This document shows, piece by piece, positions 51,001 through 60,000 of a stretch of DNA of 64,000 bases (the stretch's first letter is position 1; each line of letters starts with the position of its first letter). Position numbers: made by a program. Source of the stretch: Mytilus edulis (lineage: Eukaryota); assembly GCF_963676685.1 (NCBI RefSeq), contig NC_092356.1, positions 64,666,001 to 64,730,000 on the forward strand. Reading direction: 5' to 3'.

Positions 51001-54000
51001 CTTTTATAGCTATAGAGAACGAAACGTATTTATTTTGCGTTGCATGTGTTTAAGTAAGTGGTTTTGTTTTATTTATATTACGATGCACTACATTTTGACT
51101 TGTAAAGAAAAACTCAAAGATACCAGGTTTATTATTGTTTATTAATAAATCTGAAAATAATAAAAAGTTAGACCATAAGGAAAGACAATATACATGTAAA
51201 CCTGTCTGATAAATTTAAACAAATTGTTTTTTGAAACATAACTTACAAAAAAGTGGGTACATTTTATATAAATTGTTATTTACTCAATAACTTTTTCGTT
51301 TGGAACATTCACTCAAATAGCTCTACTTTACTGTACGTAATGTATATTGATTGATTTATTGATTGGTGTAAAACGCCACTGTCAGTACTAATGTGCTATT
51401 TTATGCGGTCAGCTTTTTTCGAGGAAACCGCAAAGCCCAGACAAAACAAACAACCGTCGGTAGGACAGGAAAATGTATAAATTCGCATTCATGTCTGATC
51501 GTAATGTGAGGAAATTAACGTTTAAATATAGATTAAAAAAAAGGAATGGCATAAATTCCTGGATAAAATTTTTCAATAAATCGTTGTCAAAGCCTATCCC
51601 AGCACCCCAACTCCATAGATCATAAGGTGTTTCGAACATCTATTTAGACCAATTAGAATTAACTAATTGATCATGGCCATGTCCATCGTCAGGAGCCCAA
51701 GCCATTGCATAGTGACACTTATTATAAAAATACTGTACCTTTTATTAGGGGCTCGACACCTCATGATCTGTCTGACTTATATTTTTCTATACTCTTTATC
51801 TACTTAACCTTGTTTATCAATTTAATGAACAAAGTATAGAATCTATTTTCATAGTCTGCAACATATTAATTATTCAGAGTTGCTGATGTTACTATGTCTT
51901 TCAAGTTTTTATGCCTACGGAAAGCAAACAGAGGTCTTTTATCAAATAACAGTTTTGCCTCTTCGTCATCCTTTAATTTATCCCAGTGTTTTAAGATATT
52001 GTTCTTTATGTATGATTTCTGTCTTGAAAACACTGTGGAGAATACCAAGGGAGGCGACTGTAATACAGATTTGGGCTTTACCATTAATGTGTCTATTCTT
52101 TGTTTTGCAGTCACTTCCTGCATAACAGTTTTAATTTCATTTTTTGGATATCCCCTTTTAATGAGGCGCTCAGAAAATAACGCATATTGTGTTTGCAAAT
52201 CTACTGGATCGTTCGTACATCTCTTAAAGCGAAGCATTTCTCCTTTAATTATGCCTCTGAAAGTAGAGGATGGGTGGCATGAGGATCTCTCTAAATACTG
52301 ATAATTTTCAGTCTTTTTTCGGAATGTCGTGAGGTCTAAGATTCCTGTTTCTCTAAATCTTAGACCTTTGAATACCAGCACATCTAAAAACTGCATTTTA
52401 GTTTGTGATTTCTCGTGTGTAAACTTTAGAAGTGCATGTTGTCTATTAGCATGTTCAAAGAATTGTGATATTTCATCATCTGTACCTTCATTGTAAATAA
52501 AAAAGCCATCGTCCCTAAACCTGTAGAGACTTGATATTTTTTGTTTATGTTGAAAAGTCCTTAAAATACTATTTAAGACTTCATAAACTCTCAGATCCGT
52601 AATTTCTGGTGATAAACTATTTCCCATTGGAACTCCAGTTGAAGTTTTATAAAATTTACCATTGAACATAAATTCATTATTTTCAAGAACTATCTTCAGA
52701 AGTTCCACTATATATCGCAACGGAGGCAAAAGTATCGTATGTTTACATTTAATTATCGTAGGCCAAGCATGCTTGACTGCGTCAATCATTTCTACATGGG
52801 ACATATTGTTGTACATTTCTTTTATGTCAAAACTGACTAAGTAGGCGTCAGGTTTTACCTGCAATTTCTCAATAATATTTATAAATTCTAATGAGTCCCT
52901 TAAATGTGTTTCTTGTTTTAATACTGCTGGAAGCATGAATTTATCCAAATACTGCCCTATTCTCTCTAAAACAGTACCCGATAATGAAACAATAGGCCTT
53001 CCTTGAATTCTGACATTTTTATAAAGCGTAGGATTCTGTTGAACGCTTTCTATTAGTTCAGGATCAAGTTTGTGCAATTTAGGCAGAAGATACAACCTTC
53101 CTGGTTTGAGATCTCTCTTAGCAGAAAGATATTTAAAGGAGATTTCATCCATGACCCCTTTTCTATGCATTTCAAAGATAATAGTATTGATTTTTTGGTT
53201 AGTCTCTATTATGTTTAATTTTGCAATTTCCATGAAGTGAGTAGCACTACTTAATTGCCTCAGACCTTCATTTATATATTCTGTTTTATCCCAGATCACT
53301 GTGGTGTTATTTTTATCTGCTTTTCGAATAACTATTTTTTCGTTTCGTTTGAGGGAAGAAATTGCCTTTCTTTCCAGCGTAGTGAGATTATCGTGTGCTT
53401 TATTAATTGTTATATTATCTATCTCAACCTTAGTTTTGAATATATATGTCTCAATGGCATTATTTGCAAGTTCCGGTTTATATCCGGATTTTGTTAAAAA
53501 GGGATGACGTTTGAAAATATCACCCTTGTCAAAATGATATTTACATCTTAGTTTTCTTGCAAATTCATTGAAATCTGATGCAATACTAGATTTTGCAAAT
53601 TTCGTCGAGGGAGACGGTATATATTTTAATCCTTTACTGAGTAACAAAATCTCATCCTCTTTTATTTTTTCAGTGGTGAATATTTTAACATATTCACGTG
53701 CTTTTTCAATTGATTTTTTCCTCTTGAGAGAGCGAATCTTGATCTTTCTATTTTTCTGATAGAAGGCCTTTTTCATGATAGCCTTTTTTGTTTTTTTCGC
53801 TCTCTTAAAGTGTCTGTTAGCCATGCTTACAGATCGGAGGAATTCGCCAGAAGGCAGTGTGCAATTCATTTCTTGATGTAATATTGATTCTTTATCAAGC
53901 CTGTATGAACTCACCAACCAATCAGATATCAGTTACTCATTAGGAAACTAAATAAGGGGAAGAGGAGAACATCCCTCTAGACATTGCAACCAATCACCAT

Positions 54001-57000: not shown

Positions 57001-60000
57001 ACGATAATTAAATGTAAACATACGATACTTTTGCCTCCGTTGCGATATATATTGGAACTTCTGAAGATAGTTCTTGAAAATAATGAATTTATGTTCAATG
57101 GTAAATTTTATAAAACTTCAACTGGAGTTCCAATGGGAAATAGTTTATCACCTGAAATTACGGATCTGAGAGTTTATGAAGTCTTAAATAGTATTTTAAG
57201 GACTTTTCAACATAAACAAAAAATATCAAGTCTCTACAGGTTTAGGGACGATGGCTTTTTTATTTACAATGAAGGTACAGATGTTGAAATATCACAATTC
57301 TTTGAACATGCTAATAGACAACATGCACTTCTAAAATTTACACACGAGAAATCACAAACTAAAATGCAGTTTTTAGATGTGCTGGTATTCAAAGTTCTAA
57401 GATTTAGAGAAACAGGAATCTTAGACCTCACGACATTCCGAAAAAAGACTGAAAATTATCAGTATTTAGAGAGATCCTCATGCCACCCATCCTCTACTTT
57501 CAGAGGCATAATTAAAGGAGAAATGCTTCGCTTTAAGAGATGTACGAACGATCCAGTAGATTTGCAAACACAATATGCGTTATTTTCTGAGCGCCTCATT
57601 AAAAGGGGATATCCAAAAAATGAAATTAAAACTGTTATGCAGGAAGTGACTGCAAAACAAAGAATAGACACATTAATGGTAAAGCCCAAATCTGTATTAC
57701 AGTCGCCTCCCTTGGTATTCTCCACAGTGTTTTCAAGACAGAAATCACACATAAAGAACAATATCTTAAAACACTGGGATAAACTAAAGGATGATGAAGA
57801 GGCAAAACTGTTATTTGATAAAAGACCTCTGTTTGCTTTCCGTAGGCATAAAAACTTGAAAGACATAGTAACATCAGCAACTCTGAATAATTAATATTTT
57901 GCAGACTATGAAAATAGATTCTATACTTTGTTCATTAAATTGATAAACAAGGTTAAGTAGATAAAGAGTATAGAAAAATATAAGTCAGACAGATCATGAG
58001 GTGTCGAGCCCCTAATAAAAAGTACAGTATTTTTATAATAAGTGTCACTATGCAATGGCTTAGGCTCCTGACGATGGACATGGCCGTGATCAATTAGTTA
58101 ATTCTAATTGGTCTAAATAGATGTTCGAAACACCTTATGATCTATGGAGTTGGGGTGCTGGGATAGGCTTTGACAACGATTTATTGAAATAAATGTATAA
58201 ATTCGCATTCATGTCTGATCGTAATGTGAGGAAATTAACGTTTAAATATAGATTAAAAAAAAGGAATGGCATAAATTCCTGGATAAAATTGAGAATGGAA
58301 ATGGGGAAATAGTCAGAGAGAAAATAACCGAACTAAAGAGCAGACAACAGCCGAAGGCCACCAATGGGTCTTAAATGCAGCGAGCAAAATCCAGTACCAA
58401 AGGGTGGACCCTATATATTATATATATTTTGTACTAGTTCAGTAAAAATGAACGTTTGCCTGTGTTTTTTTCTTATATCTAAAGTTATTATTCCATTTCG
58501 GTCTAAATAATCGATATGCAACTTTTTTGTATTCGTGTCAATAGGGTAAATAAATAAACCCCTTGGAGTCTTTTTTAACACTAATATCATATTATTTTGC
58601 AAGCATCATATATGTTCATATTTAAGATCTATCATTTTCTAGTGCAATATAACATGTCTTTTCTAAACTATATATCACAATCATTGTTAAATATTCAAAC
58701 CATCAATGTTGCTGTTGTACATTCTAAGTTGACATATTATCTCCTAATCTTATAAAGCCCACATAACTTTATCACTTATCATCATATATTGCATAACATC
58801 AAAACAACATTTAAGTAAACAATTATGTCACCACCTACAAACCTTGTTGACATCATGACACTTACATTGATTGTTTGTTTTGAATGCTGGTTAGGATATT
58901 GACTTCATCTGAGAAGGTCTAAGCTGTTGATTTGTCTTATCATCTAGTGACAGACATTGCTTACGTACAATAATGTTTCATTTTCTATTAGGAAAACTGA
59001 TCTTCCTTGTTTTTGAACAAACAGTAACACTTTCAATTAATAGATGATTTACTCATTGCAACCGTTTCACAATCTCATTTGTATTTTCTAACTCACGAAC
59101 ATATATCTTAGCTGTATTTGACACAACCTTTCGTACTATTGGTCCTGAATGCTATTCAACCTCGTACTTTATTTGTCTTTTCTAACTTTTTTGATTCGAA
59201 TAACACTTATTCTATGAGTCTTTCGTAGAAGCGCACAAGGTTAACACAATTTTAATCCTTGTATCTATGATGAGTTTATATTAATACAAAATATTTATTC
59301 TACTAAACTATATCACTTTAGAAACAAATTAAATAGATAGGAATAAATAAATAGATATTAAAAGAAGAATTCAAAATAATGCATATTGTTCATCAATGCC
59401 GACGTTATAAATTTATATGCACATATACAGTGTTGAAGTTGAATTTCCATTTCTAATGAAACAAATGCAGAAAATGTTTCGGTTATGAAATATCTTCAAA
59501 AACGTCAATACGCATCGTTTAAACTGTAGTAGAGTCTTATGGGATTTATATTGAGCAATACTCAAAGGATATCAAACAAAAAGAAATATTCCTTATAACT
59601 AAATAACTCACCATGCTATTTATGGTCTTTTTTCCTTTTCATTTAACATAACTCGAAAAATTTAACTTGTTTGTTAGCTTAAACTAGCAATGTACACTGC
59701 TATCATCGAAATCAAAATATTTTCTTGTACCGAATGCCACCAGTTATTAGGCTAGGCGCACAACTATCTTTTCGATGCTGATATCGAGCACAACCATATT
59801 TAAAAAAAAATACCAGGTTGAACCAATACATTTTTATAATAATATGAAATCATTGCAGAAGCCCATACCGCATAGTCAGCTATAAAAGGCCCCGAAATGA
59901 CAATGTAAAACAATTCAAACGAGAAAACTAACGGCCTTATTCATATAAAAAAAATGAACGAAAAACAAATATGTAACACATAACCAAACGACAACCACTA

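What the first reader, a model, noticed from the sequence alone, without database searches (positions are those of the whole stretch)
51471..58290. 100-bp perfect TSD with both ends being element 3-prime termini: double-primed insertion at widely staggered nicks
Seen: both outer junctions are the same element terminus (...GACAACGATTTATTGAAA) pointing outward, flanked by an exact 100-bp duplication that is single-copy at the paralog (about 20600-20700). The internal inversion junction shows microhomology: GACAGAAAT at 54269-54277 is both the end of the left arm and present in the element at 57737-57745, just upstream of where the pLTR match starts. Established: inverted 5-prime-truncated segments occur in Penelope insertions, but retroelement TSDs are normally far shorter. 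Inference: two cDNAs primed on opposite strands 100 nt apart and joined by annealing, as expected for an RT exploiting breaks it does not make.
Basis: partly seen in the sequence, partly recalled or inferred. Interest (0 to 1): 0.7.

Follow-up and report, generated by a model that had tools for sequence, protein, structure and literature searches.

The report
Mussel Penelope-like retroelement, 100-bp duplication
A mussel retroelement that has no DNA-cutting enzyme of its own sits as a head-to-head pair of copies flanked by an unusually long 100-base target duplication, as expected if both DNA ends of a widely staggered break primed copying of its RNA.

Summary
An exact 100-nt direct repeat (51471-51570 = 58191-58290) flanks 6.6 kb made only of three 5'-truncated copies of one Penelope-like element (PLE). 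These are an inverted 2,708-nt copy, a 431-nt direct 3' fragment (pLTR) and a direct 3,484-nt copy. Both outer ends are the same 3' terminus. An old paralogous segment carries the 100-mer once.

This layout is the textbook PLE arrangement (inverted copy plus partial tandem), not a new one. Priming from both strands fits published in-vitro work on a PLE that has its own endonuclease, so it is not specific to an enzyme using foreign breaks.

Three things are unusual:
- The duplication is 100 bp, against 4-10 bp in the PLE papers I could read.
- The family lacks the GIY-YIG endonuclease. It belongs to a deep clade of about 643-aa endonuclease-less relatives.
- The pLTR is about 8% diverged from both arms, so it came from another template or from the donor locus.

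Differences between the arms coincide with polymorphisms in other Mytilus copies, which suggests two separate RNA templates.

The origin of the nicks is unresolved. No other genomic copy and no reads could be examined. I rate it a new variant of a known kind, of moderate interest.

The parts
51471..51570 (.). Target-site duplication, left copy (100 nt, 26% GC). Its right edge is the 3'-OH of the + strand that primed the inverted copy.
   Evidence: Identical to 58191-58290. Single copy in the paralog at 20600-20699.
51571..54278 (-). Inverted, 5'-truncated element copy (2,708 nt). Its 3' terminus ...TTATTGAAA lies flush against the left duplication.
   Evidence: 99.3% identical to 55481-58189: 19 differences in 2,709 aligned positions. 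Terminus found.
51866..53869 (-). Intact reverse-transcriptase ORF of the inverted copy (667 aa from the first ATG). The likely true start is M16 at 53824, matching the 'MARRF..' starts of relatives. It ends at the linker ...RHKNLKDIVTSATLNN with no GIY-YIG domain.
   Evidence: ORF list. Weak RVT_1 Pfam match only. Relatives and their ends. tblastn with an EN+ relative stops at the linker.
54269..54278 (+). Inversion junction. The end of the inverted copy (GACAGAAATA) overlaps the start of the pLTR by 4 nt (AATA, 54275-54278). The 9-mer GACAGAAAT recurs in the element 15 nt upstream of the pLTR start point.
   Evidence: Sequence, BLAST ends, 9-mer count of 4 against 0.98 expected.
54275..54705 (+). 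pLTR: a direct 3' fragment of the element (431 nt) ending at the same terminus. It is about 8% diverged from both arms, including a 5-nt insertion and a 4-nt deletion.
   Evidence: 92.6% and 91.6% identity to the arms' 3' ends. Three-way alignment. Terminus.
54706..58189 (+). Direct element copy (3,484 nt), 5'-truncated inside the upstream ORF ('ORF X'). Its 3' terminus faces the right duplication.
54704..55018 (+). C-terminal 103 codons plus stop of ORF X (RGG-rich tail). This is probably ORF1 of the element, open right from the pLTR junction.
   Evidence: Matches the C-terminal parts of 185-293-aa Mytilus proteins. A M. coruscus gene model, P0123, joins the RT C-terminus to ORF X. No Pfam family.
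55935..57897 (+). Reverse-transcriptase ORF of the direct copy. It is broken by one extra A at 55970 in an A-run, about 12 codons after the M16 start. The longest ATG ORF runs 55984-57894.
58190..58190 (+). One extra T between the element terminus and the right duplication. It is either untemplated or a template-end variant.
58191..58290 (.). Target-site duplication, right copy. Its left edge is the 3'-OH of the - strand that primed the direct copy.
20600..20699 (+). Paralogous 'empty site': the same 100-mer, present once and contiguous with both flanks. It lies in an old duplicated segment.
   Evidence: 77/100 identical to the duplication. Flanks are colinear.

Best explanation
This is one recent insertion of an endonuclease-less, Neptune-like Penelope-like element (PLE) of a Mytilus genome into one copy of an old segmental duplication.

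The target was opened by two nicks 100 nt apart: + strand after ...GGATAAAATT, - strand after ...ATACATTT. This left complementary 100-nt 3' overhangs. Each 3'-OH primed reverse transcription at the 3' end of an element RNA.
- The + strand cDNA ran 2,708 nt.
- The - strand cDNA ran 3,484 nt into ORF1 and continues with 431 nt of a diverged 3' end. That extension arose either by a jump to a second, different RNA or because the donor transcript already began in an upstream pLTR.
- The 3' end of the first cDNA then annealed to the second cDNA at a short homology (4 nt certain, 9-10 nt possible) and was extended.
- Filling in the overhangs duplicated the 100-mer.

Shown: the anatomy, the single-copy target, the lack of an endonuclease, and the pLTR divergence.

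Inferred: the priming on both strands, the joining step and the origin of the nicks. The nicks may come from an endonuclease supplied in trans or from the host. This is unresolved.
For: - Both outer junctions are the same terminus at the edges of a perfect 100-nt direct repeat. The repeat is single and contiguous in the paralog. The whole 6.6 kb is therefore one insert with a true target duplication and no target loss.
- Direct flanks, rather than inverted ones, and an asymmetric centre argue against a fold-back.
- The junction carries homology that is rare by chance. The 9-mer occurs only inside element copies: 4 observed against 0.98 expected in 128 kb.
- The arms differ at 19 of 2,709 aligned positions. 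Of the 7 amino-acid differences, 2 (K/N at residue 217, D/V at 465) coincide in site and residues with 2 of the 3 real differences between two other M. edulis copies, P0001 and P0002, over 600 shared columns. This is expected if the arms came from two different RNAs. It is not expected if one arm was copied from the other.
- The same layout is the published typical PLE structure (PMC3846280 passages; PMC2377424 passages; PMC8557442 passages).
- A PLE protein cleaves and extends both strands in vitro (PMC11167929, main text).
- No endonuclease: Pfam gives only RVT_1. tblastn with the GIY-YIG part of EN+ relative P0041 finds nothing in the 64 kb beyond one E=4.0 chance-level match at 2382-2474, while its RT part aligns up to the linker on both arms.
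- 25 of the 30 next-best relatives (P0003-P0032) end within 5 residues of this ORF's end. The other 5 are shorter, and none is longer.
- In the tree, the query plus 22 such proteins form a clade with SH-aLRT 100 among 76 rows.
Against: - This is a single locus. No reads, no empty allele of the same site and no other genomic copy of the family could be examined.
- The pLTR is about 8% diverged from both arms while the duplication has 0 differences in 100 nt. At 8% divergence that outcome has probability 0.92^100 = 2e-4. The simplest 'one RNA' version fails, and an extra assumption is needed: a second template, or a donor transcript that already carried the pLTR.
- The 9-mer is not at the pLTR start point but 15 nt upstream. 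Using it requires a 17-nt gap in the pLTR template, which I could not verify.
- The right junction has an extra T.
- The two shared polymorphisms rest on only two other copies. Both are A/T changes, so recurrent mutation is not excluded.
- Gene conversion between 2.7-kb inverted arms could also keep them alike.
Confidence: 0.72

Rival explanations
1. Two successive events. First, a direct copy with its pLTR inserted by ordinary target-primed reverse transcription and produced a 100-bp duplication. Later, a second copy of the same family homed in inverted orientation exactly to the boundary between the left duplication and the 5' end of the first insert.
For: PLE ribonucleoproteins are reported to nick their own pLTR region and to form nested or tandem insertions (PMC11167929, main text; PMC3846280 passages). 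The arms carry different alleles at two sites that are polymorphic in the family. The pLTR differs in age from the arms.
Against: The second insertion would have to start at precisely the phosphodiester that ends the duplication, with no duplication or deletion of its own. That exact position is what double priming predicts for free. The arm divergence of 0.7% and the perfect duplication fit a single recent date.
Confidence: 0.07
2. A preformed composite moved at the DNA level. The palindrome-like unit (inverted arm, pLTR, direct copy) already existed elsewhere or as extrachromosomal cDNA. It was then captured as a whole in a staggered break.
For: The diverged pLTR shows that at least part of the internal structure predates, or is independent of, the template of the arms. 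Arkhipova et al. 2013 show that whole pLTR-bounded units can be mobilised (PMC3846280 passages).
Against: Both ends stop at the exact RNA 3' terminus, as expected for priming at an RNA end. A DNA copy of one composite would make the arms as different as they were in the donor. That is possible, but it needs a donor with the same structure. No second copy of any internal junction is in the 64 kb.
Confidence: 0.08
3. Self-priming or hairpin model. A single cDNA folded back at its end and copied itself, giving the head-to-head inverted repeat. This was proposed for rotifer Penelope elements with palindromic junctions.
For: The model was proposed for PLE inverted repeats (PMC3846280 discussion passage). 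The element does contain an internal 9-nt inverted match at the junction points.
Against: A fold-back copy would be identical to its template when made. Here 2 of the 7 amino-acid differences between the arms are polymorphisms shared with other copies. The centre is 1.2 kb of asymmetric sequence, not a palindromic turn. A fold-back running to the end would copy the flank in inverted orientation, whereas the flanks are direct.
Confidence: 0.04
4. Assembly artefact: a chimeric or fold-back read, or mis-joined haplotypes, created the inverted arm and the second 100-mer.
For: Craig et al. 2021 state that such PLE structures often cause assembly problems (PMC8557442 passage). I had no reads.
Against: The arms differ at 19 sites including an indel. 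The centre is asymmetric. The flanking repeat is direct, and both flanks continue colinearly with the paralog for 1 kb and 5.7 kb. A fold-back artefact gives identical arms and inverted flanks.
Confidence: 0.05

Closest known systems
Canonical Penelope/PLE insertion unit: an inverted 5'-truncated copy or inverted pLTR, then a direct pLTR, the ORF and a pLTR. Examples are Pen2a_Av of Adineta vaga and the frequent 'form C' of Drosophila virilis Penelope.
   Same: The order and orientation of parts are the same. The inverted and direct copies overlap by a few nucleotides (15 bp in Pen2a_Av, 4-10 nt here). The whole unit is bounded by one target duplication. Inverted arms vary in size (PMC3846280 passages; PMC2377424 passages; PMC8557442 passages).
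   Different: The duplication is 100 bp, against 8-10 bp in A. vaga and a 4-bp example in the Naiad table. There is no GIY-YIG endonuclease, no hammerhead ribozyme and no 30-40-bp tail at either end. The inverted arm is 2.7 kb. The pLTR is 8% diverged from the body.
PAc (Poseidon of Anolis carolinensis) in vitro: cleavage and extension of both DNA strands.
   Same: Both strands serve as primers for reverse transcription. Initiation occurs without homology between primer and template. The cleavage preference is for AT-rich DNA with an ATT motif, and here both nicks follow ATT or ATTT (PMC11167929, main text).
   Different: PAc carries its own GIY-YIG endonuclease and initiates internally, which produces 'tails'. 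Here there is no endonuclease, and both cDNAs start at the same terminal nucleotide.
L1 twin priming (Ostertag and Kazazian 2001; recalled, not read here).
   Same: Both are single insertion events in which the second-strand 3' overhang also primes on the RNA. The two cDNAs join at a microhomology, producing an inversion bounded by one target duplication.
   Different: In L1 the second primer anneals inside the same RNA, so the inverted segment is internal and the outer left end is not a 3' terminus. L1 duplications are about 7-20 bp (recalled). A search for 'Penelope-like' together with 'twin priming' found 3 papers, none of which, by title and abstract in the listing (full texts not opened), is about PLEs.
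Long target duplications of other retroelements: R9 LINEs of rotifers (126 bp) and Dualen-4b of Chlamydomonas (median 900 bp).
   Same: The duplication length equals the distance between the two strand breaks, and is of the order of 100 bp or more (PMC9977147 passage).
   Different: Those are LINEs with their own endonucleases, and no inverted second copy is reported in the passage I read.
Endonuclease-less PLEs inside EN+ clades: the Neptune-like MjPLE01 of kuruma shrimp and the PLE-X families of Selaginella and Chara.
   Same: The GIY-YIG domain has been lost within a canonical clade. Craig et al. propose 'alternative means of securing 3'-OH groups' (PMC8557442, section 12 read, passages). 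The nearest EN+ relatives here carry the C-x4-C-x2-C linker of Neptune/Nematis type.
   Different: Whether this mussel and bivalve clade is related to MjPLE01 could not be tested, because no reference sequence was available. The insertion anatomy of those families was not described in the text I read.
Telomere-associated endonuclease-less PLEs (Athena, Coprina).
   Same: No endonuclease. They rely on available 3'-OH ends.
   Different: Those elements carry reverse-complement telomeric repeats and sit at chromosome ends (PMC8557442 passages). Here there is no TTAGGG/CCCTAA dimer anywhere in the window, the site is interstitial, and there is a target duplication.

Membership tests
Penelope-like elements (PLE) | PLE-type reverse transcriptase with conserved N-terminal motifs and thumb, related to EN+ PLE proteins | tested here: met
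   EN+ relative P0041 (GIY-YIG at its C-terminus) aligns over its residues 155-778 at 29% identity, E=1e-78, on both arms. 164 homologues were found; of the 120 listed, 30 carry PF01541. Pfam RVT_1 reaches 28.6 bits, just under its 29.6 cut-off.
Penelope-like elements (PLE) | Partial tandem (pLTR), often with an inverted 5'-truncated copy upstream | tested here: met
   Inverted 2,708 nt, direct 431 nt and direct 3,484 nt, all ending at the same 3' terminus.
Canonical EN+ PLE (Penelope/Poseidon, Neptune, Nematis) | C-terminal GIY-YIG endonuclease | tested here: not met
   The ORF stops at the linker. There is no GIY-YIG match in the element, and none in the 64 kb beyond one E=4.0 chance-level match at 2382-2474. 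The whole 23-row clade lacks the extension.
Canonical EN+ PLE | Hammerhead ribozyme motif in the pLTR | tested here: not met
   Rfam scan of 51000-58800 at E<=1 gave 0 matches. A scan of 57850-58200 at E<=10 gave only 3 chance-level snoRNA matches.
Canonical EN+ PLE | Optional 30-40-bp 'tail' at one end of the unit | tested here: not met
   Both outer ends stop at the same nucleotide (...TTGAAA). There is only 1 extra T on the right.
Naiad/Chlamys (N-terminal EN PLE) | N-terminal GIY-YIG endonuclease and CxC linker upstream of the RT | tested here: not met
   Relatives start 'MARRF..' at a conserved position with no N-terminal extension. The upstream ORF X and its full-length relatives have no Pfam family. 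The IFD and CxC motifs were not examined.
Athena/Coprina (telomeric EN- PLE) | Reverse-complement telomeric repeats at the 3' end and a terminal location | tested here: not met
   No TTAGGG or CCCTAA dimer in the window. The insert has unique flanks on both sides and a target duplication. The telomere repeat unit used is recalled, not taken from a call.
Neptune clade | RT phylogeny with named Neptune references; CX2-5CxxC linker before the endonuclease | not testable with these tools
   No named reference sequences were available. The only indirect evidence is that the nearest EN+ rows P0089, P0105 and P0109 have a C-x4-C-x2-C linker, and the node joining them has weak support of 71.
Twin-priming-type insertion | One target duplication bounding two oppositely oriented cDNAs joined at a microhomology | tested here: met
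   Priming itself is inferred, not observed.

The most novel reading that the evidence does not exclude
A deep, bivalve-wide clade of Penelope-like elements that lost the GIY-YIG endonuclease still integrates inside chromosomes. It would do so by having a paired reverse-transcriptase complex prime from both 3' ends of widely spaced nicks that it does not make, for example at repair or replication intermediates, giving duplications of about 100 bp. If so, the hallmark inverted plus tandem architecture of PLEs is a property of the RT ribonucleoprotein and not of the endonuclease. That runs contrary to the suggestion in the literature that the endonuclease's cleavage properties determine this architecture.
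Probability: 0.25. Interest if true: 0.7.

Novelty: new variant of a known kind. Interest (0 to 1): 0.45.

Why it matters
How PLEs integrate is still poorly understood. The passages I read attribute their tandem/inverted structures to the special cleavage behaviour of the GIY-YIG endonuclease (Craig 2021 passage). They also state that endonuclease-deficient PLEs of protists and fungi do not share this organisation (Arkhipova 2013 conclusions passage).

Here the full classical architecture, with a clean target duplication, is produced by a family whose whole clade lacks the endonuclease. The two priming sites are 100 nt apart. If this is typical of the family, it offers a natural test of whether the architecture depends on the endonuclease. 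It would also show how an endonuclease-less retroelement can colonise chromosome interiors.

If it is a one-off, it is simply a well-preserved example of a known PLE insertion type with an unusually long duplication.

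Tried and rejected
- Hammerhead ribozyme: two Rfam scans gave none. A CUGACGA...GAAAC pair seen by eye in the 3' region was not pursued, because the stem III pairing fails.
- GIY-YIG remnants: tblastn found none in the element or elsewhere, apart from one E=4.0 chance-level match at 2382-2474.
- 54706-55480 as a captured host mRNA 3' end: considered because of its higher GC, RGG tail and AATAAA-like signals. 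It became less likely when a M. coruscus model (P0123) showed the same RT-C-terminus-to-ORF X adjacency and ORF X proved to be multi-copy and restricted to Mytilus.
- 93-aa ORF near-length search: only one partial hit. Atlas search of ORF X: no usable hit. Pfam on ORF X relatives: nothing, apart from a SWIM finger in an unrelated part of the composite model P0126.
- Telomeric repeats: none.
- Evgen'ev 1997 and Pyatkov 2004 (PNAS) are not held. My memory that Penelope duplications are variable and can reach tens of bp is therefore unverified.
- A search for MjPLE01 found only Craig et al..
No other genomic copy, empty allele or read could be checked.
- The 2026 retrozyme preprint (abstract only) and the Drosophila TE review (passages) added nothing.

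Full report
**What is in the sequence**

The window has no N and is 31% GC.
- An exact 100-nt direct repeat (51471-51570 = 58191-58290) encloses 6,620 nt.
- By self-BLAST, these 6,620 nt consist only of three copies of one element:
  - an inverted copy, 51571-54278;
  - a short direct 3' fragment, 54275-54705;
  - a longer direct copy, 54706-58189.
- The 18-mer terminus GACAACGATTTATTGAAA occurs exactly three times in the 64 kb even with 3 mismatches allowed (0.37 expected). It lies at the outer end of each arm and at the end of the short fragment.
- The left junction is flush. On the right a single extra T (58190) separates terminus and repeat.

**The repeat is a target duplication**

The flanks belong to an old duplicated segment of the same window: 19367-28341 against 50573-51570 plus 58191-63884, colinear at 75-80% identity. 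In that paralog the 100-mer is present once (20600-20699, 77/100 identical). It runs without a gap into both flanks. So everything between the two 100-mers is an insertion, the 100-mer was duplicated by it, and no target bases were lost.

**What the element is**

The inverted copy carries an intact 667-aa ORF.
- Its best matches are Mytilus edulis proteins at 98-99% identity, so the host is a Mytilus mussel.
- Pfam sees only a borderline RVT_1 match.
- The protein aligns at 29% identity (E=1e-78) with P0041. P0041 is a 927-aa relative whose C-terminus has the C-x4-C-x2-C linker and GIY-YIG motifs of Penelope-like elements.
- That alignment stops at the linker on both arms. The endonuclease part of P0041 finds nothing in the window apart from one E=4.0 chance-level match at 2382-2474.

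The loss of the endonuclease is not private to this copy.
- Of the 30 next-best relatives (P0003-P0032, 34-46% identity, including Pinctada and Saccostrea proteins), 25 end within 5 residues of this ORF's end. The other 5 are shorter, and none is longer.
- Relatives at 31% identity or less mostly carry 130-178 further residues ending in the PLE endonuclease C-terminal motif.
- I built a quick maximum-likelihood tree of 76 rows. These were hits covering query residues 80-654 at under 95% identity, so fragments and the two near-identical Mytilus copies were left out. The query and 22 endonuclease-less proteins form one clade with SH-aLRT 100 and long internal branches. Two further endonuclease-less rows (P0031, P0039) fall outside it.
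- The nearest EN+ rows have the Neptune/Nematis-type linker, but the joining node is weak (support 71).

Craig et al. 2021 state that EN- families occasionally arise inside Chlamys and Neptune, naming the shrimp element MjPLE01 (section 12 read; passage). I could not test relatedness to it.

No hammerhead ribozyme is detectable. No telomeric repeat is present.

**None of the three copies is full length**

The frame is open from the pLTR junction (54704) to 55015.
- Its 103 residues match the C-terminal parts of 185-293-aa proteins found only in Mytilus coruscus, M. galloprovincialis and two unnamed contigs. Identity is 52-89% to the first four of these.
- One M. coruscus gene model, P0123, begins with the last ~106 residues of this RT (81% identical) and continues into this second protein.
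- The same order, RT C-terminus then 'ORF X', in a diverged copy from another species suggests that ORF X is the upstream ORF (ORF1) of the element.
- The 3,484-nt copy therefore appears truncated about 160 codons into ORF1. This is an inference.
- ORF X has no Pfam family and no Atlas lead.

**Ages and templates**

The arms differ at 19 of 2,709 aligned positions: 18 substitutions and one extra A at 55970, which breaks the right-hand ORF.

The short fragment is different.
- It is 92.6% and 91.6% identical to the two arms, with a 5-nt insertion and a 4-nt deletion.
- The target duplication has 0 differences in 100 nt. Decay after insertion cannot explain 8% divergence, since 0.92^100 = 2e-4.
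- The fragment was therefore copied from a different family member, or the template RNA was a donor-locus transcript that already started in a diverged upstream pLTR.
- The second option is compatible with the promoter position reported for Penelope and Chlamys-3 (PMC8557442 passage).

The arms themselves probably had different templates.
- Of their 7 amino-acid differences, 2 (K/N at 217, D/V at 465) coincide in site and residues with 2 of the only 3 genuine differences between P0001 and P0002 across 600 shared columns.
- All four allele combinations occur among the four sequences.
- The other 5 differences are private to one arm: 3 in the left arm and 2 in the right.
- This argues against one arm being a copy of the other.

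**The inner junction**

The inverted copy ends ...GACAGAAATA at 54278. The short fragment aligns to the element from 57760 (54275), so 4 nt (AATA) are shared.

GACAGAAAT is the reverse complement of element positions 55482-55490, and it also lies on the sense strand at 57737-57745. It occurs nowhere else in the window: 4 hits, all in element copies, against 0.98 expected.

It sits 15 nt upstream of the fragment's start. It served as the annealing site only if the fragment's diverged template lacked 17 nt between two AAT triplets. That is plausible, given the fragment's other indels, but unverified. For comparison, the rotifer element Pen2a_Av shows a 15-bp overlap of inverted and direct pLTRs.

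**Mechanism**

The geometry requires a + strand nick after ...GGATAAAATT and a - strand nick after ...ATACATTT. These leave 100-nt complementary 3' overhangs. Each 3'-OH is continuous with a cDNA that begins at the same RNA 3' nucleotide. Neither junction uses terminal homology: all three terminal A's are kept on the left, and an extra base is present on the right.

This is double target-primed reverse transcription followed by annealing of one cDNA end to the other.

It matches the in-vitro finding that a PLE protein cleaves and extends both strands and initiates without homology to the primer (PMC11167929, main text). It also matches the published 'typical' PLE layout. The architecture is therefore known.

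Both nicks follow ATT/ATTT, the motif preferred by that protein. In DNA of 26% GC this is weak evidence.

**What is unusual, and what stays open**

The duplication length is unusual.
- It is 100 bp, against 8-10 bp for rotifer PLEs and a 4-bp entry in the Naiad table.
- Duplications of 126 bp (R9) and about 900 bp (Dualen-4b) are reported for LINEs.
- I found no statement of a PLE duplication of this size. This rests on searches and on the passages read. The two founding Penelope papers were not available.

The second unusual point is that a family without an endonuclease shows the full 'EN+' architecture at an interstitial site. The nicks could come from an endonuclease acting in trans. Naiad PLEs with N-terminal endonucleases are abundant in Mytilus. 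They could also come from host processes. Nothing here decides between these.

**Rivals**

A fold-back artefact or hairpin copy is disfavoured by the direct flanks, the 1.2-kb asymmetric centre and the 19 arm differences. A second insertion homing exactly to the duplication edge, or capture of a preformed composite, cannot be excluded without other copies or alleles.

**Verdict**

The double-priming inference is well supported for a single locus. The claim that this is 'as expected for an RT exploiting breaks it does not make' goes beyond the evidence. I rate it a new variant of a known kind, with interest 0.45.

Noticed in passing
window 19367-28341 versus 50573-51570 plus 58191-63884: An old intrachromosomal duplication of at least 9 kb, colinear at about 75-80% identity and about 31 kb apart. 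The PLE insert is present only in the second copy.
   Followed up: partly
window 54704-55015; proteins P0122-P0125, P0128-P0130: A Mytilus-restricted, multi-copy ORF of 185-293 aa with an RGG-rich tail and no known family. It is found next to the RT C-terminus here and in a M. coruscus gene model. It is probably an undescribed ORF1 of this PLE family.
   Followed up: partly
window 42681-43424 (-): A second, decayed PLE-like reverse-transcriptase remnant. tblastn with P0041 residues 522-697 gives 23% identity, E=5e-8, at 42702-43256. It lies in a 247-aa open frame.
   Followed up: no
window 48356-48525, 21784-21954, 1663-1832, 59907-60034: A short interspersed repeat of about 130-175 nt in four copies at 88-92% identity. 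It also lies inside both copies of the old duplication.
   Followed up: no
window 47384-47556, 40933-41104, 58282-58392, 20692-20887: Another short repeat family (73-90% identity). One copy starts at the right edge of the target 100-mer, so the insertion site lies at the border of an older repeat.
   Followed up: no
window 55970: One extra A in an A-run breaks the RT frame of the direct copy about 12 codons after the likely start. The inverted copy keeps the intact ORF.
   Followed up: yes
RT ORF 51866-53869 (-) and relatives P0003, P0004, P0012: In the endonuclease-less clade the RT active-site motif reads R-D-D (YRFRDDGF). The EN+ relative P0041 has I-D-D.
   Followed up: no
window 54705/54706: At the pLTR-to-body junction the terminus ...TTGAAA is followed by GAAATCC.... 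The tetranucleotide GAAA is therefore present twice, and the template switch used no overlap.
   Followed up: no
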